This document shows, in pieces, positions 3,304 to 30,177 of a stretch of DNA of 64,000 bases. Below the pieces are notes generated by a model. The model saw only the letters and a list, made by a program, of their open reading frames with translations. It had not been told where the DNA came from and did no database searches. Source of the DNA: Escherichia virus TH54; the sequence record MT446420.1. The stretch is one strand, 5' to 3'. Numbering within the stretch: the first letter of the stretch is position 1; each line of letters begins with the position of its first letter. Both the position numbers and the translations under genes were made by a program.

Positions 3304-3380
3304 CGCACATCTCTTTTAATTTTTGAATTTCACCAGCAACCATCGCACATCTCTTTTAATTTCTGAATTTCACCAGCAAC
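3301..3380. repeat. 2 x 40 bp tandem direct repeat (one mismatch) spanning the dexA start
   Basis: catcgcacatctcttttaattt[t/c]tgaatttcaccagcaac occurs twice back to back. Confidence 0.9.
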
Positions 3381-3575
3381 ATAGTCGGAGATAAAAATCC
3401 CTGGCTCTTCATTGTTAAAATATTCAATCGCGGCCATACGTTTCCGAATAAGATTCAGTTCCAGCAAAACGTAATTACCCTGCACGACGATAGTTGGATT
3501 ATCTTCGAAAAATTCAACCGCGTCCTGAATACCATAGATAAGATTATCTAAATCTTCTTTATGTACCTTATACAT
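3330..3575 (-). CDS. hypothetical protein
   Basis: 81 aa; C-terminus encoded inside the tandem repeat. Confidence 0.5.
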   Translation of the reverse strand: MYKVHKEDLDNLIYGIQDAVEFFEDNPTIVVQGNYVLLELNLIRKRMAAIEYFNNEEPGIFISDYVAGEIQKLKEMCDGCW

Positions 3576-4896
3576 AATATGCGTCGTACCTCGCTCGTGT
3601 GATTCCTACATAAGCCAACTGGCTCGCTAATGAAGCTTCGGCCATATGGATGCATGGAGTATAGATGAATGCTTTGTCCACTGAAACGCCCTGTGCCTTA
3701 TGGATTGTACTGACCGGAAGAGCACGAACTTTCAAGAAGGTCCTGCGCGCTTTCCAGAAGTCTTTCCACTCTGGACGTTTACCAGCGGCTTTCATCTGTT
3801 TGTATGTGTCAGCAACTTTCGCCAGATATGCCTGGAATTTTGGTTGCTGGTCTTCTGGTAAAACTTTAATGCGGTCAACCTGATATTCTTCATCTTCATC
3901 AATTGACTCAACTTCCAGGTCCCAGTAATTAATCACTAACTGGTGCGATTCACCTTTACAACGGAGAATGGTGGAAGTGTATTTGCAATCCTTGATGCGA
4001 ACCAACTGACCATTATTAAAAATAATTTCGCTGAATTTCTTTCCTTCAAATTCCAGCTCTTTCATGTGCGGCTCTTGCATAACCAGGACTTCATACAGTA
4101 AAAATGCTTTATCCGTTTCATATAGCTTGCGACGAATAATATTATTCAGTTTTTCAACTGATTTATTCGTGTACGCATACATCCTGTTTTCCATCAGCAT
4201 ATCAGCATCTTTTACAATACTGAAATAGTTTATCATGAAATCCTTTAAAGCGGTTTGTGAGGTGAAACCTTGTACGCCATGACCTTCATACATACAGTCA
4301 CGGAACCAACCCCCATTACGAATTTCTGTCGCCACTTCAATGATAGGAGCATTGCTTCGCATGACCTCAGTCAAATGAATCTGTTTGAACTTAGGATGCG
4401 TAAAGAATGGGCTTATCTTTTGTTGTGTGCTTCCTGGGTCAACTGGCTGCAGCTGGTGCATATCACCAATCCCAAGAATAGTACACCATTCAGGAACAGA
4501 GTTAAGAATAATCTTAAACAGAGACCCGTCATACATACTTGCTTCATCACAAACCAGAACATTGCATTTTGACATGTCAGGCATTTCGCGCTGTTCAAAA
4601 ACGTTTTGGTCTTCATACGTAGTCGGGTTAATCTTTAGGATACTATGGATTGTATTCGCTGTTTGACCAGACAATTTAGATAAAACTTTTTTCGCCTGGT
4701 GAGTTGGTGCAGCGAGCACAATTCCCATAACTCCATTTCGCACCAGATGGTCAATGACAAATTTTGTCAGAGTAGTCTTACCTGTGCCAGCTGGACCATT
4801 CAGAGTGATACATTCCCCTGAACGTCGCTGAATAGCTTCAGTGATATAATCAAAAGCTTCTTTTTGTCCTGTGTTCAAGTCTTCAAATTTAATCAT
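3568..4896 (-). CDS. dda: Dda-like SF1 DNA helicase
   Basis: 442 aa; Walker A GPAGTGKTT; overall resemblance to T4 Dda; synteny. Confidence 0.9.
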   Translation of the reverse strand: MIKFEDLNTGQKEAFDYITEAIQRRSGECITLNGPAGTGKTTLTKFVIDHLVRNGVMGIVLAAPTHQAKKVLSKLSGQTANTIHSILKINPTTYEDQNVFEQREMPDMSKCNVLVCDEASMYDGSLFKIILNSVPEWCTILGIGDMHQLQPVDPGSTQQKISPFFTHPKFKQIHLTEVMRSNAPIIEVATEIRNGGWFRDCMYEGHGVQGFTSQTALKDFMINYFSIVKDADMLMENRMYAYTNKSVEKLNNIIRRKLYETDKAFLLYEVLVMQEPHMKELEFEGKKFSEIIFNNGQLVRIKDCKYTSTILRCKGESHQLVINYWDLEVESIDEDEEYQVDRIKVLPEDQQPKFQAYLAKVADTYKQMKAAGKRPEWKDFWKARRTFLKVRALPVSTIHKAQGVSVDKAFIYTPCIHMAEASLASQLAYVGITRARYDAYYV

Positions 4897-10289: not shown

Positions 10290-10373
10290 TATATTTTTCC
10301 TTATCAATTCATGTTGTTTGTATGTTAATTATATCGTATTGGTTTGAAGCATAAATACAAGAAAGGAGGATAT

Positions 10374-11927: not shown

Positions 11928-12119
11928 TTATACAACGAAGATAGCTTTATCACCATTTGCATCAGTCACTTCATAAGTGTCTTCATGATACAACGGAATA
12001 ATCCAGGTAACACCATCATCAGCGATAACATGGATTGCTTCTTGGTCTTGCGACACGATTTCATATTCTTCAAAAATCTGGAAGACCGAAATCTTAGAGC
12101 CCGTACACATTGCACTCAT
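11928..12119 (-). CDS. hypothetical protein
   Basis: 63 aa acidic ORF. Confidence 0.35.
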   Translation of the reverse strand: MSAMCTGSKISVFQIFEEYEIVSQDQEAIHVIADDGVTWIIPLYHEDTYEVTDANGDKAIFVV

Positions 12120-12315
12120 ATTGTTCCCTTCTTTTAATCAATTGACGATGTGCCTTTTTAAGCTTACGAATCTGACGTTTAGTCGGTCGCGCAACGTAAG
12201 CTTGTGTAGTTACTCGTCCAAAAACACCATACTTAGGCGAAGGAGTATCAATAAAGACTTCCCACTGGCAAGAGTAACTATATATTGCTTTAGAGAATTG
12301 GGTCAAAACAAACAT
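12094..12315 (-). CDS. hypothetical basic protein
   Basis: 73 aa. Confidence 0.35.
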   Translation of the reverse strand: MFVLTQFSKAIYSYSCQWEVFIDTPSPKYGVFGRVTTQAYVARPTKRQIRKLKKAHRQLIKRREQYECNVYGL

Positions 12316-12316
12316 A

Positions 12317-12676
12317 TTAACCTCGCTTCATGAAGGCATTAAAAATCTGGTCATCAATATCAGTAGGCAGTTCTTGAGCTTTAACCCAAGCCCCTTCCAG
12401 AATGTCATTTGCTTCAGTAGATATCATGACCCCAATTTCAGGGTTTCCGGTTATCCATGCTGCACAATCGCGTACATTCTTTTTATCAAATGGATAGCCA
12501 CGAGTATCTTCATAAGGTCCACTCATTACCATAAATGAGCGAGCCTTTATGATAACATCATCTTTAACGATAATATAACCAATCGCCTGATTAAACCGAG
12601 GCTCACGAAATTCATAACGGGCATTACCATTATTATTGCTCACCAGTTCAAAATTCAGAAAATTATAATAACTCAT
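12317..12676 (-). CDS. hypothetical protein, paralog pair member (C-terminal DDQIFNAFMKR)
   Basis: 119 aa; last 11 aa and the underlying DNA nearly identical to the next gene. Confidence 0.5.
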   Translation of the reverse strand: MSYYNFLNFELVSNNNGNARYEFREPRFNQAIGYIIVKDDVIIKARSFMVMSGPYEDTRGYPFDKKNVRDCAAWITGNPEIGVMISTEANDILEGAWVKAQELPTDIDDQIFNAFMKRG

Positions 12677-12677
12677 A

Positions 12678-13118
12678 TTAATCTCGCTTCATGAAGGCAT
12701 TAAAAATTTGGTCGTCAACTGAATATACAGGGGTTTCCAGAAGTTTCAAAAGACTGTTTTTAATGTACTTACCCGGGATACCCATATTAACAATACTGTC
12801 ATTCAATTCATTATCAGGGTTGATGTCTTTAAATTCAAACCCATCAAATTCAACCTTGTCAGGAATACCATCAGCGAAAAAATAAACCAATTGGTGCATT
12901 GTATTGCGCGAAAATAATTTAGACTTGACCGCAATAAGTTCTTGCCAATGGTTTAATTCTTTGTTAAGAAGTTTATGAGCAAACGTAATTCTATTATCAC
13001 TATCAACAAGAAAATAACCCAGGTATTGAATGGGTTCGTCGCTCCAAAACATCCTGTATGCTTGTGCATTTTGATTTTTACAACGAAGTTTTTTGATAAC
13101 TAAATTTCTGTTAATCAT
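12678..13118 (-). CDS. hypothetical protein, paralog pair member (C-terminal DDQIFNAFMKR)
   Basis: Track ORF trimmed to ATG 13116-13118 immediately after the spackle stop. Confidence 0.5.
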   Translation of the reverse strand: MINRNLVIKKLRCKNQNAQAYRMFWSDEPIQYLGYFLVDSDNRITFAHKLLNKELNHWQELIAVKSKLFSRNTMHQLVYFFADGIPDKVEFDGFEFKDINPDNELNDSIVNMGIPGKYIKNSLLKLLETPVYSVDDQIFNAFMKRD

Positions 13119-13119
13119 T

Positions 13120-13413
13120 TTATTCACCTGTAACCCATTGAACAATCTTGCTGTTGTCAAATGAAGCATCGCAATACAGAACATAGTTATACTGCATAAC
13201 GTCACCAGAAGCCAGTTGGTCAGATACTTCTTTAACCATATCTGGGCGGTCACGTTTAGTAATATTCATGATATCAGCATAAATCTGATGTTCAACATCA
13301 GTCTGGTCAGCAGTCATAGACCACTCACAAAGGTCTTTATCAAGTCCAGCGGTTACAGGAGCTGTACCACATGATGCTACGGTAAGAATTGCCGCGATTA
13401 ATAACTTTTTCAT
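13120..13413 (-). CDS. sp: spackle periplasmic protein
   Basis: 97 aa with signal peptide; DKDLCEWSMTADQT...MQYNYVLYCD resembles T4 Sp. Confidence 0.8.
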   Translation of the reverse strand: MKKLLIAAILTVASCGTAPVTAGLDKDLCEWSMTADQTDVEHQIYADIMNITKRDRPDMVKEVSDQLASGDVMQYNYVLYCDASFDNSKIVQWVTGE

Positions 13414-13440
13414 TTCAATCTCCTCAGTAGTTGATAGGGA

Positions 13441-13471
13441 TAATATACTGCATTATCCCTTTGTTGTACAC
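13441..13471 (-). promoter_or_regulatory. early-type sigma70 promoter
   Basis: Reverse complement GTGTACA-N16-GTATATTAT then CCCTATCAACTACTGAGGAG leader. Confidence 0.45.
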
Positions 13472-13813
13472 TTATTTTTCACCTTCAACTGAAAAACCGG
13501 TCAAGTTGTAATATTCAGCACGTGCAATATGAAGAGCTGCTTCAATATCAGTAAGGCAGATTTCTTCATTTAACAGTTGCGCTTCAACGGTCAAAATCAG
13601 ATTACGCAATGCGGTACCCTTACGCATGTCTACTTTATGAATTAGCTTGTCATCAACAAAAGCTTCAACAAGTGCATTATAGTTATCAGCAGTCTTCTGA
13701 ACATACCAGTGAATACCTGCGGGATGGAACATACTTGAGCGCTCAAAAGATGGAACGCCAACAGCACTCACTTTGATTGTTACTTTTACGCGGTCTTCTG
13801 GATTAAAAGCCAT
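13472..13813 (-). CDS. Dmd-like paralog
   Basis: 113 aa; segment ADNYNALVEAFVDDKLIHKVDMRKG parallels the Dmd core of the adjacent gene. Confidence 0.5.
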   Translation of the reverse strand: MAFNPEDRVKVTIKVSAVGVPSFERSSMFHPAGIHWYVQKTADNYNALVEAFVDDKLIHKVDMRKGTALRNLILTVEAQLLNEEICLTDIEAALHIARAEYYNLTGFSVEGEK

Positions 13814-14026
13814 TTAGATTTCCTCAGATAAGTGGATACGATAATCACATTCAAAAACTTTATTGTCATTAACAAAGGCTTTCACCAGCGCATTATTCAC
13901 CTCTGCATACTGCACCGTAACCCATTCAATCATTTTTTGGTCACTAACATCCAGCGCGGTTTCTTTGGTAAACATATTACCATTTTCAAACCAACCAATA
14001 AACACTACGTTCTCTAATTTATACAT
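13814..14026 (-). CDS. dmd: Dmd antitoxin
   Basis: 70 aa; VVFIGWFENGNMFTKE...VQYAEVNNALVKAFVNDNKVFECD resembles T4 Dmd. Confidence 0.8.
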   Translation of the reverse strand: MYKLENVVFIGWFENGNMFTKETALDVSDQKMIEWVTVQYAEVNNALVKAFVNDNKVFECDYRIHLSEEI

Positions 14027-14344
14027 TTAGATTTCCTCACAAAACGCCCAGTCTGCGTGATAAACTGTTGCGCCTTTAGTATCATTTAAACAAACCACGT
14101 CAACAGGTGCAATCACACGATAAAGACGGGGTTCTCCTCCATACGAGCGAGCTGCTCTTCCTGCATAGATACGCGCCAAACCAATATCTTCAGTAAAAAA
14201 CACACGCCCTAAATTTTTCTTACGCCCAACTTCTGACAGAACACCAGTTGCATCAGGAGGGCAAAGCATATTTTGGATTCCAGCATTAGAGCTTGAGCCA
14301 TGGTAATAAACTTTGTATTCTGCCTTGCAATCAATGGTTTTCAT
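14027..14344 (-). CDS. hypothetical protein
   Basis: 105 aa; YYHGSSS and GRAARSYGGEPRLY motifs; no confident family call. Confidence 0.5.
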   Translation of the reverse strand: MKTIDCKAEYKVYYHGSSSNAGIQNMLCPPDATGVLSEVGRKKNLGRVFFTEDIGLARIYAGRAARSYGGEPRLYRVIAPVDVVCLNDTKGATVYHADWAFCEEI

Positions 14345-14370
14345 TTTATTCTCCAGTAGTTGATAGGTCT

Positions 14371-14399
14371 ATAATAACACAACTAACGGAGAAGTAAAC
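14371..14399 (-). promoter_or_regulatory. early-type sigma70 promoter
   Basis: Reverse complement GTTTACT-N15-TATTAT then CCTATCAACTACTGGAGA leader. Confidence 0.45.
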
Positions 14400-18939: not shown

Positions 18940-21654
18940 TTAAAAGTCAAACATATCAAAAAGAGATGCTTTTTTCTCGTAATCAACCTTAGCTGCTTCA
19001 GAGAACCCTGTCAATGGCTTAACAAAAGTCTTCTGGAACAGTGTGTTGTAGTCCATCCACTGCAAGACTTGGTCACGAATTTCAATCGGGAGTTCAATCC
19101 CTGATGGCCACGCAATCACGGTTTCGCCAAACGGGTTACCAACTTTAAGAGGAAGCACATACACCTTTTCCCCTTCCATGATTTGTGGAACAGTCTTCAG
19201 CCCTTTGGTTGCACGCATGTAAGCAAGCACGCCTTTGATATGAGCCGGACACTTAAATCCAGGGAAACCACCCTCATTATATTTCTGGATGTTGTTAACC
19301 GATGATACACCTGCGATGGTCATGTAATTAAGCTCATTAAATTCCTTGTTGAATTCCTTGAAGTACGTCTGCAGAGATTCTTCACCTTCTTGCAACATAC
19401 GGCGGATACATTCTTTCAGAGCTTTCTGACATGCTTTTGGTGTGCTCGACTTTTGAGTTTCCAGACCCATGATTTTCAGTTTCGGAACAGCATATCGTGT
19501 GCCTTCCATATCGTACACGTTCAGAGCATAACGCTTCTTCGCCGTCCAGAATCCACCAACACCTTTAGAACCAAGTGGAGGACATGCAATCGCTTCACGG
19601 TCCATAAACATAAGGTGCTGTTTGTTGTTCATGTATTCAGCTAGTTCACGGAAAGCTTTATCGATTGCCGGTTCCAAACGGTCTTTCGCGAACTTGTCCA
19701 TGAAGTCAACCAGGTGGTTTGTATCGCGGAATTTAGATTCGCCACCAACCTTTTTAATCAGGTTATCGCACTGGATATAAATGGAGTCAGTATCGCCATA
19801 GAATACATATGTTTCACCACTTGTACCACAAACACTATCAAAATATTCGTTAACTTTACGCTCAATCCACTGCAATGCAAGTTGCCCGAAAGATGTAATC
19901 GCGGTTGCATTTCGCAGGTCAAAGTAACGGAACCAGATATTACCCAGAGCACCATAACAACTGTTGATAAGCAGTTTACGGTTAATCTGTGCGGTCATGC
20001 CTGCGACTTCTTCCATCTGCGCTTTGTACAACATACCATTCAGAACTGTTTGATTCAGACCGTGCAAGGTTGTTTTCATATTGTCATCGAAGTCATAACG
20101 ATAATCAACTTCAGGCTCGGTTGTACCAGTTCCTGGATTACGCAGGGCTTCCTTAATCAGTTCACCATTACGTTGAGCCGCAAGCATATAACCTTTGTGC
20201 TCTTTACGCTGATTAAACACCTTGGTGACTTCTGTTGGAATAATACCCGCAACATCTTTAAAATACATCATACCGTTTGGAGCACAACTAAATGTATCAG
20301 ATGGACGGTCAGCAGTTCCTGCAATGTATTCATACATCGGCGCTGGTGCAAATGACCCGGCAATCGTTTCTGGACTGATGTTAATCTGTCGGATGATGCT
20401 CGGATACAGAGATGTTAAGTCACAGCTCATAACGTATTTGTATGCGTTCGGAATAGGTTCCTTAACAAATGCACCTGGGAACGATTGACGAACATGCGAT
20501 TTGGTTTCCGGAATGACTTTGTTTTGAGTCTTCAGGCTGTTAAAGATAATCGCATCCCAAGTTTTGATTGGGCTGAATACAGACTGAATCTGCATTTTTG
20601 CGTAATAACCCATTGACTGGCTAAGGTTAATAAACTGGCGCTTACGGTCAATCTGTACAACACGATAAACATCGATGATGTTATAAGAAATATACCGTTG
20701 GTGATTTGATTCACGCAGTTTAGAAATCGGACCATCATATGGGAGTTTACCAACACCCAGCTCAGATTCCGCAACATAATCCAACGAATAAGATGGCTGG
20801 TTTGTGAAGCTGAACTTTTTATACAGGTCCAGATAATCCAGAACAGAGATACCCAGAATCTGAATGATTTCTTGTTCTTCACCGAATCCGTTGTTAATGA
20901 CCTTAACTTTTGTACGACGATGTGGACTCAGACGTTTTGCTGTAGCTTCACCAAACACATTTTTAAGGCGGTTGTAGATATATGGAATATCAAACTTCTC
21001 GATGTTCCAACCAGTTAACATAACCGGAGTTTTCTCGTTCCAGAATACCAAATACTGCTGGAGCATTTCTTCTTCTGAATCGAAAGCCATATAAACAATT
21101 TTTTCCAGGATTTCTTCAGGGACTTCATCGCCGCCATCTTCTTGCAGCTTAGCAGCAATATCGATAGACCATTGCTCCACAGTGGCGTATGGTGAGCTCA
21201 AAAGGTCAAAGACATAGAATTTATCGTCTACCGAATCATAGTGCGTCAGGGCATCAATAGGGTGACGTGCTTCAGACGGCTCAGGGAACCCATCAGGAGA
21301 TGTCACCTCGATATCGAAGTTAGCCACACGGATTTTACTTGAATCGTATTTGATTTCGTGCGGGTAACGGTCGGACAAGTATGCGAGTTTAAAGTCATCC
21401 ATACCCATAGCTTCGAGACCCATGTCATTCATTCGCTTCATCCACTGGGATGCATCACGCATGGAGTCGAATTCTTTTTTCACACAACCTTTATTATAGA
21501 TGTCTGTATACTTTGCAGCCTGGTCTTCGCGGGCATGCATAAACAAGCATGGAGCATAAGGGATTTCACGAACACGTTCATGACCGTTCTTGTCAATGTA
21601 TCGTTCGAGTAGATTGTCACCGATTTGTTCGATAGTTAAATAAAATTCTTGCAT
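18940..21654 (-). CDS. 43: family B DNA polymerase
   Basis: 904 aa; exonuclease motifs and polymerase motif YGDTDS; collinear resemblance to T4 gp43. Confidence 0.95.
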   Translation of the reverse strand: MQEFYLTIEQIGDNLLERYIDKNGHERVREIPYAPCLFMHAREDQAAKYTDIYNKGCVKKEFDSMRDASQWMKRMNDMGLEAMGMDDFKLAYLSDRYPHEIKYDSSKIRVANFDIEVTSPDGFPEPSEARHPIDALTHYDSVDDKFYVFDLLSSPYATVEQWSIDIAAKLQEDGGDEVPEEILEKIVYMAFDSEEEMLQQYLVFWNEKTPVMLTGWNIEKFDIPYIYNRLKNVFGEATAKRLSPHRRTKVKVINNGFGEEQEIIQILGISVLDYLDLYKKFSFTNQPSYSLDYVAESELGVGKLPYDGPISKLRESNHQRYISYNIIDVYRVVQIDRKRQFINLSQSMGYYAKMQIQSVFSPIKTWDAIIFNSLKTQNKVIPETKSHVRQSFPGAFVKEPIPNAYKYVMSCDLTSLYPSIIRQINISPETIAGSFAPAPMYEYIAGTADRPSDTFSCAPNGMMYFKDVAGIIPTEVTKVFNQRKEHKGYMLAAQRNGELIKEALRNPGTGTTEPEVDYRYDFDDNMKTTLHGLNQTVLNGMLYKAQMEEVAGMTAQINRKLLINSCYGALGNIWFRYFDLRNATAITSFGQLALQWIERKVNEYFDSVCGTSGETYVFYGDTDSIYIQCDNLIKKVGGESKFRDTNHLVDFMDKFAKDRLEPAIDKAFRELAEYMNNKQHLMFMDREAIACPPLGSKGVGGFWTAKKRYALNVYDMEGTRYAVPKLKIMGLETQKSSTPKACQKALKECIRRMLQEGEESLQTYFKEFNKEFNELNYMTIAGVSSVNNIQKYNEGGFPGFKCPAHIKGVLAYMRATKGLKTVPQIMEGEKVYVLPLKVGNPFGETVIAWPSGIELPIEIRDQVLQWMDYNTLFQKTFVKPLTGFSEAAKVDYEKKASLFDMFDF

Positions 21655-25069: not shown

Positions 25070-25321
25070 TTAATCAAAGTATTCATATGCGAACCAGGCA
25101 TTGTGTCTGTTCGCGATTATTTTAACATATTCTTCACCGAAAGCGTTTTGCAAGTCACGTTCAGTGACAAGGTGCTCATCTTTCGAAAAGGTATTAACTA
25201 ACACATACCGTTTAATTTCAGGGACAGCCAGTAAATGCTGCCCGGTTAAGAAGTCAGCCATAATAGCCTCTATTATAACATCCTTGTTTAAAGCATTATT
25301 CCATAACGGTGAATCGACCAA
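25070..25321 (-). CDS. hypothetical protein
   Basis: 83 aa. Confidence 0.45.
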   Translation of the reverse strand: MVDSPLWNNALNKDVIIEAIMADFLTGQHLLAVPEIKRYVLVNTFSKDEHLVTERDLQNAFGEEYVKIIANRHNAWFAYEYFD

Positions 25322-26978
25322 CTTTTTTCATCTGGAGATGTTGCCCGTATGCTTCCGGGTCATGGTCTCGGTGACTGATAATAAAAATGTTGGTGTCTTC
25401 CAATTTGTTCAGGATGGTAGCAATTGCTTTAACACCCTCTACATCAGTGGCCGAGTCAAAAACTTCATCCAGAATCAATGTGTTAATATTAACACCAGAT
25501 ACTTTCGCAGCAATATCGCGCCATGTAAACAGCAATGCAATATCTATACGAGCTTTTTCACCCTGGCTAAATGATGCATAGCTAAAGTCTTCACGTCCAC
25601 GAGATTTAATCGTTTCGTTGAACTCTTCATCTAACGTAAAGCTATAATCAGCTTCCATAACTTTAAGATAAGCGTTTATCTGCTTATTAAAGATAGGAAT
25701 ATATTTCTTAATAATCGCGCCCTTGATACCAGAATCTTTCAACATATCCGTTAGGATACCACGTTGATATTTTTCCATCACAAGGTCAGATTTCTGTTTG
25801 ACTATTTTATCAAGCTGGTCTTGAAGCATTTTAATGTCTGCTGCATGGTCAATGAATTCTGACTTGGCCTGCTCGATTAATGCTTTAACCCTTTTAGCTT
25901 TTTCGACAGTCTGGACTAAGGTTTGTTTCTTAGTTTGAATGTCTTGAGCTATTGTACGCTGGTTTTGTCTTGCCTTGGTATACGCATCAAATTGCTCCTG
26001 AACAGCATTCTGGCGAGCTTTATGCTTATCAGCCGATGCATTACATTCTTCAATCTTTGACTCAATCCTGGCGACAATAGGGTCTCCTGGATGCAACTGA
26101 CTAGCACAGGTCTGACAACAACCACCTTTCTCGTACAGGCTAACAACCTTTCGATAATCGTCAATCTTCGATTTAATCAGGAATGATTCCTGCTTTAACT
26201 TTGTGAGTTCGTGCTCAGGGTCTTCTCCCAAGATTATCTCGGTCAGTCTTGTCGTTGCTTCTTCGATAGTTGCCTTGATTCCACGTGCTTCTGTGGCAAG
26301 TTCATCATACATCGTTTGCAGTCGCAACAGATTATCACCCGACAATTTTCTTTGACGGTCTTCGTTGTCCTGATAGATTTTAATCTGTTGAACGATACCG
26401 TCATGCTGTACATCCATCACCTGGATTTGGCTATTGACTTCGCGGATAAGAGATTTGTTCAGCTTATCCATATCGGCCAGTACAGAAACCTCTAAAAGGT
26501 CTTCGACAAGCTTTCTTCTGGCAGGAGTGGATAGGCCCATAAAAGGGGTATATCCAGCTGTGCCGAGTACGACAATTTGTTTGAAGCTTGCGTATGACAT
26601 TCCGATAAGCTGTTCAAATTCCGCTTGGAAGTCTTTACTGCTGGCAGATTCATCAAGACGTTTACCGCCACAAGAGATTTCAAAAACATTGGGTTTTTGC
26701 CCGCGTTTGATATAGTATTCTTTTCCATCATATTCCATCCACAATTCAACGAGCATATCTTTTTTGTTGCTCGAGTTAATCAGCTGACCTTTCTTTACAT
26801 CACGGAAAGGCTTACCGAACATAGCAAAGGTAACCGCTTCAAGGAACGTAGATTTACCTGCGCCATTCTTGCCGGTTACAAGAGTTTTCTGGACTTTATC
26901 CAGTTCAACAGTAATCGGTTGAGCACCAACCGACATAATATTTTTATAGATAACTTTCTTTAGCTTAAACGTTTTCAT
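25296..26978 (-). CDS. 46: recombination nuclease ATPase subunit (Rad50/SbcC-like)
   Basis: 560 aa; Walker A GKNGAGKST; coiled coil with CxxC zinc hook; resemblance to T4 gp46. Confidence 0.9.
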   Translation of the reverse strand: MKTFKLKKVIYKNIMSVGAQPITVELDKVQKTLVTGKNGAGKSTFLEAVTFAMFGKPFRDVKKGQLINSSNKKDMLVELWMEYDGKEYYIKRGQKPNVFEISCGGKRLDESASSKDFQAEFEQLIGMSYASFKQIVVLGTAGYTPFMGLSTPARRKLVEDLLEVSVLADMDKLNKSLIREVNSQIQVMDVQHDGIVQQIKIYQDNEDRQRKLSGDNLLRLQTMYDELATEARGIKATIEEATTRLTEIILGEDPEHELTKLKQESFLIKSKIDDYRKVVSLYEKGGCCQTCASQLHPGDPIVARIESKIEECNASADKHKARQNAVQEQFDAYTKARQNQRTIAQDIQTKKQTLVQTVEKAKRVKALIEQAKSEFIDHAADIKMLQDQLDKIVKQKSDLVMEKYQRGILTDMLKDSGIKGAIIKKYIPIFNKQINAYLKVMEADYSFTLDEEFNETIKSRGREDFSYASFSQGEKARIDIALLFTWRDIAAKVSGVNINTLILDEVFDSATDVEGVKAIATILNKLEDTNIFIISHRDHDPEAYGQHLQMKKVGRFTVME

Positions 26979-28598: not shown

Positions 28599-28633
28599 CT
28601 CCTCAGTTGGTTCATTTTATCATCCCGAATATA

Positions 28634-28660
28634 AAGCAAAAAAGGAAGCACTAGGCTTCC
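28634..28660 (-). terminator. rho-independent terminator
   Basis: Stem GGAAGC/GCUUCC followed by UUUUUUGCUUU on the minus-strand RNA. Confidence 0.5.
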
Positions 28661-29402: not shown

Positions 29403-29654
29403 TTAATCCTTGGGAGTTAACTCAATTGTAAAATATAGATTAGCATTATCCACATGATAACGGTAATCAACGTTATTATCCGGTGAAGTAAATTCCAGAT
29501 TCCGGACGTTTAAAGGGTCGATATCAATTGGAAGACCTTTTATGTCTCGCAGATAAAGTTTAATGAAATATGGGAGCGCAGTAAAGTCTTCCTCGATTTT
29601 ATCTAAAAAATCGGTAATATCAAATTGATGTTCCATATAAAAAATCCAAATCAC
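29403..29654 (-). CDS. hypothetical protein
   Basis: 83 aa. Confidence 0.45.
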
Positions 29655-30177
29655 CTTCTTTATCTTTGGCGCTCTTATCAGACCCTGGCGCTTTAACTAA
29701 AGAGGATTCGTACTGTGTCATTTTGTCATAGATGTCCTGGATAAATGTTTCATCAGCCAGAGCCACCATATCGTCGTCACGTGAATCATATACGTTATGG
29801 ACGAAGTAGCTATATTTCTTTGCCATTTCTTTACGTTCTTTTTTGATACGCTGAACGAAAGCATTGAAGCAAGCCATTGTTATGTAAGCATGTGGATTAT
29901 CGTATTTTGTTTCGTCGAAGTTGTGAAGACCTTTTATTGCGGCCTCAATTCCGTCTGCTATCATTTCTTGCTTCCAGGATTGGGTATATCCGGAGAAGTT
30001 GAAACGTTTGCTAAGACCTTCGGCTATAAGCATAATCGCCAGACCAATAACATCGTTCTGGCGAATAATTTTGTTCGGGTCGGTGTTCGCATTCAGCTTC
30101 TGTTTCCACTCCGAAATAGCTTTCAAAAGCTCTTTATTATTTACATAGTTATTCTTGGTTAATTTAATTTCGTTCAT
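29620..30177 (-). CDS. 55: late-transcription sigma factor
   Basis: 185 aa; NYVNNKELL...[22 protein letters not shown] resembles T4 gp55. Confidence 0.9.

What the first reader, a model, noticed from the sequence alone, without database searches (positions are those of the whole stretch)
12317..13118. Adjacent paralogs sharing an identical 11-residue C-terminus (DDQIFNAFMKR) next to spackle
Two genes of 119 and 147 aa end with the same peptide, and the underlying DNA (about 40 nt including the stop region) is nearly identical, while the N-terminal domains differ. They sit in the 61.x anti-defence neighbourhood alongside sp and dmd. A conserved tail on divergent bodies suggests a shared docking or degradation tag.
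Basis: seen in the sequence. Interest (0 to 1): 0.45.

Follow-up and report, generated by a model that had tools for sequence, protein, structure and literature searches.

The report
Tandem AdfA-like genes sharing invariant tail
Two neighbouring genes of a T4-like phage are very diverged small relatives of the known anti-toxin protein AdfA; all relatives keep the same nine-residue C-terminal peptide, and the DNA encoding it also holds the start signals of the next gene and marks where such genes are gained or lost.

Summary
Two minus-strand genes (12317-12676, 119 aa; 12678-13118, 146 aa, not 147) both end in DDQIFNAFMKR plus one differing residue. A 45-nt direct repeat (42/45 identical) runs through the stop codon into the next gene's ATG.

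The tail is not a recent conversion tract. It is the signature C-terminus of the AdfA family (T4 gp61.2, anti-DarT factor A, Pfam PF23813). DDQIFNAFM is unchanged in 55 copies from four genera. All eight degenerate codons vary synonymously, so selection acts on the peptide.

The two bodies are very diverged, but profile and fold comparisons suggest one domain, present twice in AdfA.

In T4 the tail DNA contains the mapped MotA-dependent middle promoter P61. The window's copies deviate in the MotA box, so their promoter activity is unknown. The tail also carries the Shine-Dalgarno sequence of the next gene.

Clean 361-bp and 358-bp indels in two genera are bounded exactly by the repeat, which suggests cassette gain or loss by recombination there.

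The function of the two proteins (toxin inhibitors) and the tail's binding partner are inferred, not shown. No degradation-tag evidence was found. Moderately interesting: a new variant of a known kind.

The parts
12317..12676 (-). 119-aa gene ('B' type, phrog_4122): a single-domain AdfA-like protein ending DDQIFNAFMKRG*.
   Evidence: ORF. PHROG match 6.5e-52. Pfam AdfA matches the tail only, at 21.5 bits against a cut-off of 27. Its 44%-identical orthologues in T2 and RB51 pass the AdfA cut-off over profile positions 113-211. The AlphaFold model has pLDDT 79.6.
12678..13118 (-). 146-aa gene ('C' type, phrog_8539, JS98 orf30-like): a more distant AdfA-like protein ending DDQIFNAFMKRD*.
   Evidence: ORF, length. 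PHROG match 2e-91. Present in 85 phage records. With the tail included it aligns in register with AdfA residues 127-208. The AlphaFold body is folded and the tail scores below pLDDT 50.
12313..12357 (-). Direct repeat copy 1: the last 13 codons of the 119-aa gene, the stop codon, and the Shine-Dalgarno (GAGG) and ATG of the downstream DUF7279/TifA-like gene.
   Evidence: (family D1).
12674..12718 (-). Direct repeat copy 2: the last 13 codons of the 146-aa gene, the stop codon, and the Shine-Dalgarno (GAGA) and ATG of the 119-aa gene.
   Evidence: (family D1).
12323..12355 (-). Codons for DDQIFNAFMKR in the 119-aa gene. The invariant core is DDQIFNAFM.
12684..12716 (-). Codons for DDQIFNAFMKR in the 146-aa gene.
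12314..12338 (-). Counterpart of the T4 middle promoter P61: TGCCTTC, 12 bp, TAATAT. If active, transcription would start near 12307. The MotA box deviates from consensus (GCTT becomes GCCT).
   Evidence: The T4 P61 start site at 19122 was mapped onto the T4 sequence.
12675..12699 (-). Second copy of the P61-like motif. If active, transcription would start near 12668.
   Evidence: Phage Lutter's annotation marks promoters on both of its tails.
13120..13413 (-). Spackle (sp). Every tail-bearing gene or gene pair found in a contig long enough to show its neighbours sits immediately downstream of it.
   Evidence: phrog_1586, 3.3e-43. Gene arrangements.
12094..12315 (-). 73-aa protein of the DUF7279 (T4 gp61.4/TifA) family. 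Its translation start signals lie inside repeat copy 1.
   Evidence: 72 bits for both the window protein and T4 gp61.4. TifA is gp61.4.

Best explanation
The window comes from a Gaprivervirus-type T-even phage. The two genes are tandem, very diverged, single-domain paralogs of AdfA (T4 gp61.2, anti-DarT factor A). They occupy the slot directly downstream of spackle in the 'anti-toxin island' between helicase gp41 and primase gp61.

The family has fast-evolving bodies of about 100 residues. The domain occurs twice in the roughly 210-aa AdfA and once in the 119-aa and 146-aa forms. Each is joined by a variable linker to an invariant C-terminal helix, DDQIFNAFM.

Shown here:
- The peptide is under strong purifying selection.
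- Its coding DNA also carries the Shine-Dalgarno sequence and the stop/start overlap for the next gene.
- In T4 that DNA coincides with the experimentally mapped MotA-dependent middle promoter P61.
- It is the only stretch of DNA identity between the paralogs, and gene presence/absence differences between close relatives are bounded exactly by it.

Inferred:
- The bodies bind different host toxins (DarT-like or others) as stoichiometric inhibitors.
- The invariant helix contacts an invariant partner, or supplies a common inhibitory element.
- Recombination between tails adds, removes and swaps cassettes while automatically keeping the reading frame, the promoter and the ribosome-binding site of the downstream gene.
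For: Identity of the phage and locus.

The same tail is on T4 gp61.2, which is AdfA (Pfam PF23813, 450 bits).

Link of the bodies to AdfA:
- T2 and RB51 orthologues of the 119-aa gene pass the AdfA Pfam cut-off over the C-terminal half (32.5 and 33.2 bits against 27; P0061).
- Body-only profile comparisons with the tail removed give B versus the AdfA C-half E 2.6e-5, B versus the AdfA N-half 2.2e-4, B versus C 8.8e-4, and C versus the AdfA C-half 8e-3 over 79 columns in register. Reversed-sequence controls give 0.06-0.76.
- The model of the 119-aa protein hits independently built BFVD models: the 145-aa C-type protein (E 7e-5, TM 0.60), a 157-aa Yersinia phage protein, and a 212-aa protein.
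- Both models have the same order of secondary-structure elements.

The family is tiny. Only 10 clusters were found among 1.84 billion representatives, and every full-length member carries the tail.

Peptide selection:
- 52 copies (22 distinct DNA versions) plus 3 more show 0 amino-acid changes in DDQIFNAFM, with synonymous variants in all 8 degenerate codons.
- One genome (L040) has two tails that differ at 5 synonymous sites in the core.

Promoter: P61 start site at 19122 places the -10 element on TAATAT (stop codon plus start codon) and the MotA box on the N-A-F codons. Phage Lutter's annotation marks both tails as promoters.

Indels:
- VR26 lacks exactly 361 bp, one repeat unit plus the 119-aa body.
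- T4 lacks exactly 358 bp relative to a T4-like contig.
- In every sampled AdfA-plus-B phage the AdfA tail ends NKG. In T4-type AdfA-only phages it ends NRG, like the B tail. This is a chimeric-tail signature.
- T4 is known to recombine at 6-10-bp microhomologies in this very island.
Against: - The window's own two proteins do not reach the AdfA Pfam cut-off: 21.5 bits from the tail alone for the 119-aa protein, and no hit for the 146-aa protein.
- Body homology is statistically marginal in HMM-versus-decoy tests.
- The AlphaFold alignments mixed the three families, so the similarity of the two models is not independent evidence.
- No function has been tested for either short form. The published work treats T2, which has only the short form, as lacking adfA.
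- The residue that decides DarT1 binding in RB69 AdfA (His164) aligns with Asp and Gln here.
- The window's MotA box (TGCCTTC) departs from the canonical TGCTT[TC]A used elsewhere in the same window. In Dhakavirus the -10 element reads TGATAT. The promoter role is therefore not universal.
- VR26 keeps the upstream-type ending KRD, so its state could be ancestral rather than a deletion.
Confidence: 0.7

Rival explanations
1. The shared tail is only a recent gene-conversion or duplication tract between two neighbouring genes and has no function of its own.
For: The two copies in the window are 42/45 identical, while the rest of the genes share no detectable DNA similarity. Lys versus Asn after FM follows the genome rather than the gene family: KR in both Gaprivervirus genes, N in both Tequatrovirus genes. 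This indicates some exchange between tails.
Against: The peptide is unchanged in four genera and in at least five body types. All degenerate codons vary synonymously and none varies non-synonymously. In L040 the two tails of one genome differ at 8 of 39 nt, 5 of them in the core and all 5 synonymous, yet the core encodes the same peptide.
Confidence: 0.03
2. The conservation is imposed at the DNA level by the overlapping regulatory signals: the MotA-dependent promoter P61, its -10 element, and the Shine-Dalgarno and start of the next gene. The peptide is a by-product.
For: T4 P61 maps exactly onto the tail. Both tails of phage Lutter are annotated as promoters. The Arg-Gly codons supply GAGG six to seven nucleotides before the next ATG. 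The published T4 adfA deletion (residues 65-196) keeps exactly the last 12 codons.
Against: The positions that matter most for the promoter vary. The Ala third base, which lies in the centre of the MotA box, is T, C or A. The stop codon inside the -10 element is TAA, TGA or TAG, which removes the A at -11 in Dhakavirus. The residues encoded by the promoter spacer vary at the protein level (K/N/E/S, R/K, G/D), whereas DDQI, which lies upstream of the core promoter, is invariant. No conserved RNA structure was found.
Confidence: 0.1
3. The tail is a degradation tag that sets a short half-life for these early proteins.
For: It is a C-terminal, partly hydrophobic peptide on a flexible linker, with low model confidence.
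Against: From general knowledge, not tested here: the ends ...FMKRG, ...FMKRD and ...FMNRG do not resemble known C-terminal ClpXP or tail-specific-protease signals such as ...LAA. The last three residues, usually decisive for such tags, are the variable part. The invariant part is internal and includes polar residues (D, D, Q, N).
Confidence: 0.05
4. The tail is a sliding-clamp (gp45) binding motif, or a similar docking peptide for a conserved replication-fork protein. It would tether the variable inhibitor domains to replicating phage DNA.
For: T4 clamp ligands carry 'hydrophobic and acidic' C-terminal peptides on divergent flexible linkers. The window's own polymerase ends KKASLFDMFDF* and gp55 ends [10 protein letters not shown]. 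The tail's IFNAF has the same spacing (hydrophobic, F, D/N, x, F) as LFDMF, sits four residues from the C-terminus like the gp55 motif, and is preceded by DD. DarT acts on single-stranded DNA.
Against: The match is a short pattern chosen after seeing the sequences. T4's own motif is LDFLF, yet T4 AdfA keeps IFNAF. No binding data exist. AdfA binds DarT1 in a two-hybrid assay when fused at its C-terminus.
Confidence: 0.12

Closest known systems
AdfA, anti-DarT factor A (T4 gp61.2; RB69 AdfA; Pfam PF23813)
   Same: Identical C-terminal peptide DDQIFNAFM followed by a short variable end. Same slot immediately downstream of spackle. Shared motifs: a hydrophobic-G-x-x-x-V-K-D-x-x-I hairpin and an F-x-x-N...V-Y-F helix. 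Orthologues of the 119-aa gene pass the Pfam cut-off against the C-terminal half of AdfA.
   Different: One domain (119 or 146 aa) instead of two (208-216 aa). The window proteins themselves fall below the Pfam cut-off. The position equivalent to His164 is Asp or Gln. The 146-aa form has an extra insert of about 22 residues (KYIKNSLLK...) before the tail. No DarT test has been done on any short form.
T4 MotA-dependent middle promoter P61
   Same: Same position relative to the stop/start overlap. The -10 element TAATAT and the 12-bp spacing are identical.
   Different: The MotA box reads TAATGCCTTC in the window against TAATGCTTTT in T4. There are two copies rather than one. Activity in this phage is unknown.
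[quoted passage not shown] 2010, PMC2839356)
   Same: Short repeated sequences that carry expression signals flank accessory genes, and they bound insertions and deletions between close relatives.
   Different: PeSLs are intergenic, with a sigma-70 early promoter and a terminator stem-loop. Here the repeat is protein-coding and under peptide selection, has no stable stem-loop, and the promoter is of the middle (MotA) type.
Neighbouring anti-toxin genes of the same island: Dmd (anti-RnlA) and TifA/gp61.4 (anti-ToxN)
   Same: Small early proteins that inhibit toxins by direct binding. They sit in the same operon region, which is prone to recombination at short homologies.
   Different: The folds and families are unrelated, and they lack the shared tail. 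Within the window they show a similar but shorter repeated junction (...EEI* plus ATG).

Membership tests
AdfA (Pfam PF23813) | Score at or above the Pfam gathering cut-off (27 bits). | tested here: not met
   The 119-aa protein scores 21.5 bits from the tail alone, and the 146-aa protein has no AdfA hit. The JS98 orthologue of the 146-aa protein scores 16.4 bits. T2, RB51 and P0061 orthologues of the 119-aa protein score 32.4-33.2 bits and do pass.
AdfA (Pfam PF23813) | C-terminal motif [SI][IV]DDQIFNAFM followed by three variable residues. | tested here: met
   Present in both window proteins and in every full-length family member found.
AdfA (Pfam PF23813) | Two-domain architecture of about 210 aa. 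| tested here: not met
   The window proteins are 119 and 146 aa. They align only to AdfA residues about 113-208.
AdfA (Pfam PF23813) | Gene located directly downstream of spackle, between gp41 and gp61. | tested here: met
AdfA (Pfam PF23813) | Same fold as an AdfA domain. | tested here: inconclusive
   Body-only hhalign gives E 2.6e-5 to 2e-2 against controls of 0.06-0.76. Foldseek against BFVD models gives TM 0.53-0.60. HMM-versus-decoy scores are marginal. No solved structure exists.
AdfA (Pfam PF23813) | His at the position of RB69 AdfA residue 164, which enables DarT1 binding. | tested here: not met
   In alignments A1 and A3 this position is Asp70 in the 119-aa protein and Gln in the 146-aa protein. 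The result depends on the alignment.
AdfA (Pfam PF23813) | Binds and neutralises DarT1. | not testable with these tools
   Known only for the T4 and RB69(R164H) alleles.
T4 MotA-dependent middle promoter | MotA box (a/t)(a/t)(a/t)TGCTTtA. | tested here: inconclusive
   The window has TAATGCCTTC, 8 of 10 matches with the centre changed. Canonical boxes occur elsewhere in the window. MotA is reported to tolerate single changes.
T4 MotA-dependent middle promoter | -10 element TAnnnT placed 12 +/- 1 bp downstream of the box. | tested here: met
   TAATAT after exactly 12 bp in both copies, as in T4 P61.
T4 MotA-dependent middle promoter | Mapped MotA-dependent 5' end. | not testable with these tools
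   Mapped in T4 at position 19122. No data exist for this phage.
PeSL modular-shuffling cassette | Intergenic unit made of a sigma-70 early promoter and a terminator stem-loop. | tested here: not met
   The repeat is coding. Folding gives no stable or conserved hairpin, with z-scores mostly between 0 and +1.9.
PeSL modular-shuffling cassette | The repeats bound indels between closely related phages. | tested here: met
gp45 sliding-clamp binding motif | Acidic and hydrophobic C-terminal peptide (LDFLF or LFDMF type) on a flexible linker. | tested here: inconclusive
   IFNAF preceded by DD has the same spacing as the window gp43 motif LFDMF. The linker has low pLDDT. The pattern was defined after seeing the sequences.
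gp45 sliding-clamp binding motif | Physical binding to gp45. | not testable with these tools

The most novel reading that the evidence does not exclude
The invariant tail is a docking peptide for an invariant phage replication protein, most plausibly the gp45 sliding clamp. If so, the AdfA family would be a set of interchangeable toxin-binding heads tethered to the replication fork, protecting nascent single-stranded phage DNA where DarT-type ADP-ribosyltransferases act. The tail-coding DNA would also work as a self-contained 'plug': peptide, middle promoter and ribosome-binding site. That plug would let new heads be recombined in without breaking expression of the primase operon.
Probability: 0.12. 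Interest if true: 0.8.

Novelty: new variant of a known kind. Interest (0 to 1): 0.45.

Why it matters
AdfA is one of the few characterised anti-DarT factors, and how it works is not understood.

- **A small superfamily.** T-even phages carry one-domain and two-domain AdfA relatives. They include a short form in T2, which the literature lists as lacking adfA, and two tandem short forms in Gaprivervirus.
- **A clear experimental handle.** All of them share one invariant nine-residue helix. One can mutate the tail while recoding the DNA, swap heads, and screen the short forms against DarT variants and other toxins.
- **One sequence with several jobs.** In T4 the same DNA encodes the peptide, a middle promoter and the next gene's ribosome-binding site.
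- **A recombination joint.** The same sequence marks where anti-defence cassettes are gained or lost without disrupting expression of the downstream primase operon.

Tried and rejected
- **RNA structure.** Folding 105-nt segments around the tail gave no stable or shared hairpin (z-scores mostly between 0 and +1.9; the script timed out after about 30 of 41 sequences). Rejected.
- **Word-indexed protein searches.** These returned only close relatives. The exhaustive profile search was needed, and it showed the family is tiny.
- **Degenerate DNA pattern scans.** Scans of the viral and metagenome collections found only T-even-like contigs. The peptide was not seen outside this locus in those contigs.
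- **A 285-aa 'triple' gene in phage 04086.** This is an assembly artefact containing ambiguous residues.
- **NCBIfam.** No model matched.
- **Original AdfA paper (LeRoux et al. 2022).** It could not be retrieved. AdfA facts are taken from later papers by the same and neighbouring labs.
- **HMM-versus-shuffled-decoy test of body homology.** Borderline only. Homology of the bodies therefore rests on the profile-profile and fold evidence.

Full report
**1. The observation**

Two back-to-back genes lie on the minus strand. One is at 12317-12676 (119 aa). The other is at 12678-13118 (146 aa from the ATG used in annotated relatives; the open frame extends further upstream). They end ...DIDDQIFNAFMKRG* and ...SVDDQIFNAFMKRD*.

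The DNA repeat is 45 nt (12313-12357 and 12674-12718), 42/45 identical and 361 nt apart. It runs through the stop codon into the ATG of the following gene (TAATATG). A 31-nt probe allowing 3 mismatches finds only these two sites, against none expected by chance. BLASTP aligns only the last 27 residues of the two proteins.

The second protein is 146 aa, not 147. One differing residue follows the shared 11-mer.

**2. Where this is**

The region is 96-99% identical to Gaprivervirus phages (TH15, SP18, VR20). The minus-strand gene order is:

- gp41 helicase
- 125-aa gene
- 105-aa gene
- dmd
- 113-aa Dmd-like gene
- spackle
- 146-aa gene
- 119-aa gene
- 73-aa DUF7279 gene (the T4 gp61.4/TifA family)
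- 63-aa gene
- gp61.1
- gp61 primase

This region has been called an anti-toxin island in T4. It holds Dmd (against RnlA), TifA (against ToxN) and AdfA/gp61.2 (against DarT).

**3. The tail belongs to AdfA**

T4 gp61.2 ends ...VSIDDQIFNAFMNRG* and is the founding member of Pfam PF23813 'Anti-DarT factor A'.

Three PHROG families share only this C-terminus: phrog_3781 (about 210 aa), phrog_4122 (118 aa) and phrog_8539 (145 aa). I call the three body types A (AdfA), B (118-119 aa) and C (144-146 aa).

The arrangements found after spackle are:

| Phage or contig | Genes after sp |
|---|---|
| T4 | A |
| RB51, Lutter and several metagenomic phages | A then B |
| T2 | B |
| JS98, VR5, VR26 | C |
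| This window, SP18, VR20, VR7 | C then B |
| One metagenomic contig (L040) | a 143-aa variant, then B |
| A 173-kb phage (L041) | a 120-aa variant |

An exhaustive profile search of 1.84 billion representative proteins found only 10 clusters. All came from this family, and every full-length one carries the tail.

**4. Are the bodies related?**

Several lines suggest they are:

- T2 and RB51 B proteins match the C-terminal half of the AdfA model above the curated cut-off (32-33 bits against 27). The window's B protein is 44% identical to them.
- Multiple alignments show two shared motifs in register: a hydrophobic-G-x-x-x-V-(K)D-x-x-I hairpin, and F-x-x-N...V-Y-F followed by a G-(F/Y)-E strand.
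- With the tail removed, profile-profile comparisons give:

| Comparison | E-value |
|---|---|
| B versus AdfA C-half | 2.6e-5 |
| B versus AdfA N-half | 2.2e-4 |
| B versus C | 8.8e-4 |
| AdfA N-half versus C-half | 2.7e-3 |
| C versus AdfA C-half (79 columns in register) | 8e-3 |
| C versus AdfA N-half | 2e-2 |
| Reversed-sequence controls | 0.06-0.76 |

- AlphaFold models have the same order of elements: five strands, a helix, a strand, then helices.
- The B model hits independently built BFVD models of a C-type protein (TM 0.60, E 7e-5), a 157-aa Yersinia phage protein and a 212-aa protein.

The caveats are real. HMM-versus-decoy scores are borderline, and my AlphaFold alignments mixed the families. 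I rate common ancestry of the bodies at about 0.8. AdfA then looks like a tandem duplication of the domain that B and C carry once.

**5. What conserves the tail?**

Across 52 copies (22 distinct DNA versions) plus three more, DDQIFNAFM never changes. Meanwhile all eight degenerate codons vary synonymously: GAT/GAC twice, CAA/CAG, ATT/ATA, TTT/TTC twice, AAT/AAC, and GCC/GCT/GCA. Only about 14% of single-base changes in these codons would be synonymous, so nine or more independent synonymous changes with none non-synonymous is very unlikely without selection.

The protein databases hold one D-to-E variant and one D-to-V change in a fragment.

In contig L040 the two tails of one genome differ at 8 of 39 nt. 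Five of these lie in the core, all synonymous, and both tails still encode the core peptide.

The residues on either side vary: the four before the core, and K/N/E/S, R/K, G/D after it. Selection therefore acts on the peptide. The 'recent conversion tract' idea is refuted.

Some exchange between tails does occur. Lys versus Asn after FM follows the genome, not the body type.

**6. A second layer: expression signals**

A review table lists the experimentally identified T4 middle promoter P61 with its start at position 19122. On the T4 sequence this places the -10 element on TAATAT, which is the AdfA stop codon plus the first bases of the gp61.1 start. The MotA box falls on tAATGCTTTt, the Asn-Ala-Phe codons, with the canonical 12-bp spacing.

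The annotators of phage Lutter marked 27-nt promoters on both of its tails. The Arg-Gly codons supply the Shine-Dalgarno sequence of the next gene.

The published T4 adfA deletion removes residues 65-196 and leaves exactly the tail codons.

In the window both copies read TGCCTTC, 12 bp, TAATAT. Canonical TGCTT[TC]A promoters are enriched elsewhere in the window (7 found, 1.7 expected). Activity of the tail promoters here is therefore uncertain.

The centre of the MotA box (the Ala third base) and the A at -11 (TAA versus TGA stop) vary among genera. The promoter cannot be the universal constraint.

No conserved RNA hairpin was found.

**7. A third layer: a recombination joint**

- VR26, in the same genus, lacks exactly 361 bp: one repeat unit plus the B body. 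The flanks align cleanly.
- T4 lacks exactly 358 bp relative to a T4-like contig that carries A then B.
- In all six sampled A-then-B genomes the A tail ends NKG and the B tail ends NRG. In the four T4-type A-only genomes the A tail ends NRG. This is what a crossover within the 30 identical nucleotides upstream would produce.
- T2 retains a 12-nt remnant of the tail's 3' end directly after sp. This fits loss of AdfA between TGAATA microhomologies.
- T4 is known to amplify and delete segments of this same island through 6-10-bp microhomologies within a few passages. A 45-nt repeat is therefore an ample substrate.

This resembles PeSL-mediated modular shuffling. Here, however, the repeat is coding and carries a middle-type promoter.

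**8. Likely mechanism**

Shown:
- family relationship through the tail and, more weakly, through the bodies
- peptide-level selection
- overlap with P61 and the ribosome-binding site
- repeat-bounded indels

Inferred: the 119-aa and 146-aa proteins are early or middle cytoplasmic inhibitors of host toxins. Their variable bodies give specificity. In RB69 AdfA a single residue in the shared helix decides DarT1 binding, and that position differs in B (Asp) and C (Gln).

The invariant helix sits after a low-confidence linker. It probably contacts something that does not vary.

One candidate partner is the gp45 clamp. Its ligands carry acidic and hydrophobic C-terminal peptides on flexible linkers. 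The window's polymerase ends ...SLFDMFDF*, with the same hydrophobic-F-(D/N)-x-F spacing as ...QIFNAFM.... This is a lead only (about 0.12).

Nothing suggests a degradation tag.

**9. Verdict**

It belongs to a known family (AdfA), so it is not categorically new.

What appears to be new is the following. No paper in the searched library mentions the motif, and the literature counts T2 as lacking adfA.

- recognition of single-domain AdfA-like forms
- the absolute invariance of the tail under peptide-level selection
- its coincidence with promoter P61
- its role as the boundary of cassette gain and loss

Interest is moderate.

Noticed in passing
window 13811-13831 and 14024-14044 (minus strand): A second repeated gene junction lies in the same locus. 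TGAGGAAATCTAAATG (19/21 nt over the 21-nt repeat) ends both the 105-aa gene and dmd with ...EEI* and supplies the ribosome-binding site and ATG of the next gene. dmd is thus flanked by direct repeats in the same way as the 119-aa gene.
   Followed up: partly
window 13472-13813 (minus strand): The 113-aa gene next to dmd has a Dmd-like N-terminal part (phrog_2102 E 9e-6; Pfam Dmd E 0.0017), so it looks like a tandem dmd paralog. It is absent from SP18 and replaced by other genes in VR7.
   Followed up: partly
window 12094-12315 (minus strand): The 73-aa gene belongs to DUF7279, the same Pfam family as T4 gp61.4/TifA, the ToxN inhibitor (72 bits each). Here it lies downstream of the AdfA-like pair, not between dmd and sp as in T4.
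   Followed up: partly
L006 (phage T2) 2417-2431: Directly after the sp stop codon T2 carries TTAGAGGTTAGTATG, a remnant of the 3' end of the AdfA tail. This suggests T2 lost adfA by deletion between TGAATA microhomologies at the end of sp and in the tail.
   Followed up: partly
L026 (RB69-like metagenome contig), just after the AdfA stop codon: The 63-aa gene that normally follows RB69-type AdfA is mostly deleted. The junction lies at an AAATG microhomology shared by the AdfA stop/start overlap and the 3' end of the 63-aa gene.
   Followed up: no
L038 (Escherichia phage 04086, OR842557.1) 3379-4236: An annotated 285-aa 'hypothetical protein' consists of three partial copies of the 146-aa type gene joined at ambiguous residues. 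This is almost certainly an assembly artefact of a mixed population, not a real fusion.
   Followed up: yes
window 18940-21654 and 29620-30177 (minus strand): The DNA polymerase ends KKASLFDMFDF* (the RB69-type clamp-binding peptide) and gp55 ends [10 protein letters not shown]. Among ORFs on the coding (minus) strand of the window, only the polymerase and the two tail-bearing proteins have hydrophobic-F-(D/N)-x-F within the last 16 residues. Four ORFs on the opposite strand also matched.
   Followed up: partly
window 10328-10351, 25272-25295, 25804-25828, 28614-28638 (minus strand): These are canonical MotA-type middle promoter matches (TGCTT[TC]A, 11-13 bp, TAnnnT with good -10 elements). 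Seven matches were found in the window against 1.7 expected. The phage evidently uses T4-like middle promoters.
   Followed up: no
window 13425-13447 and 14354-14376: A 23-nt direct repeat (83% identical) lies in the two intergenic gaps upstream of sp and of the 105-aa gene. It overlaps sigma-70-like promoter matches and probably marks paired early promoters.
   Followed up: no
L031 (metagenome contig OBRI01000039.1) 1140-1540: This is a C-then-B arrangement in which the B gene has a different N-terminus (MYIQSDLSYLNFEL...). It is followed directly by the 63-aa gene, with no DUF7279 gene. This is another junction variant at the tail.
   Followed up: no
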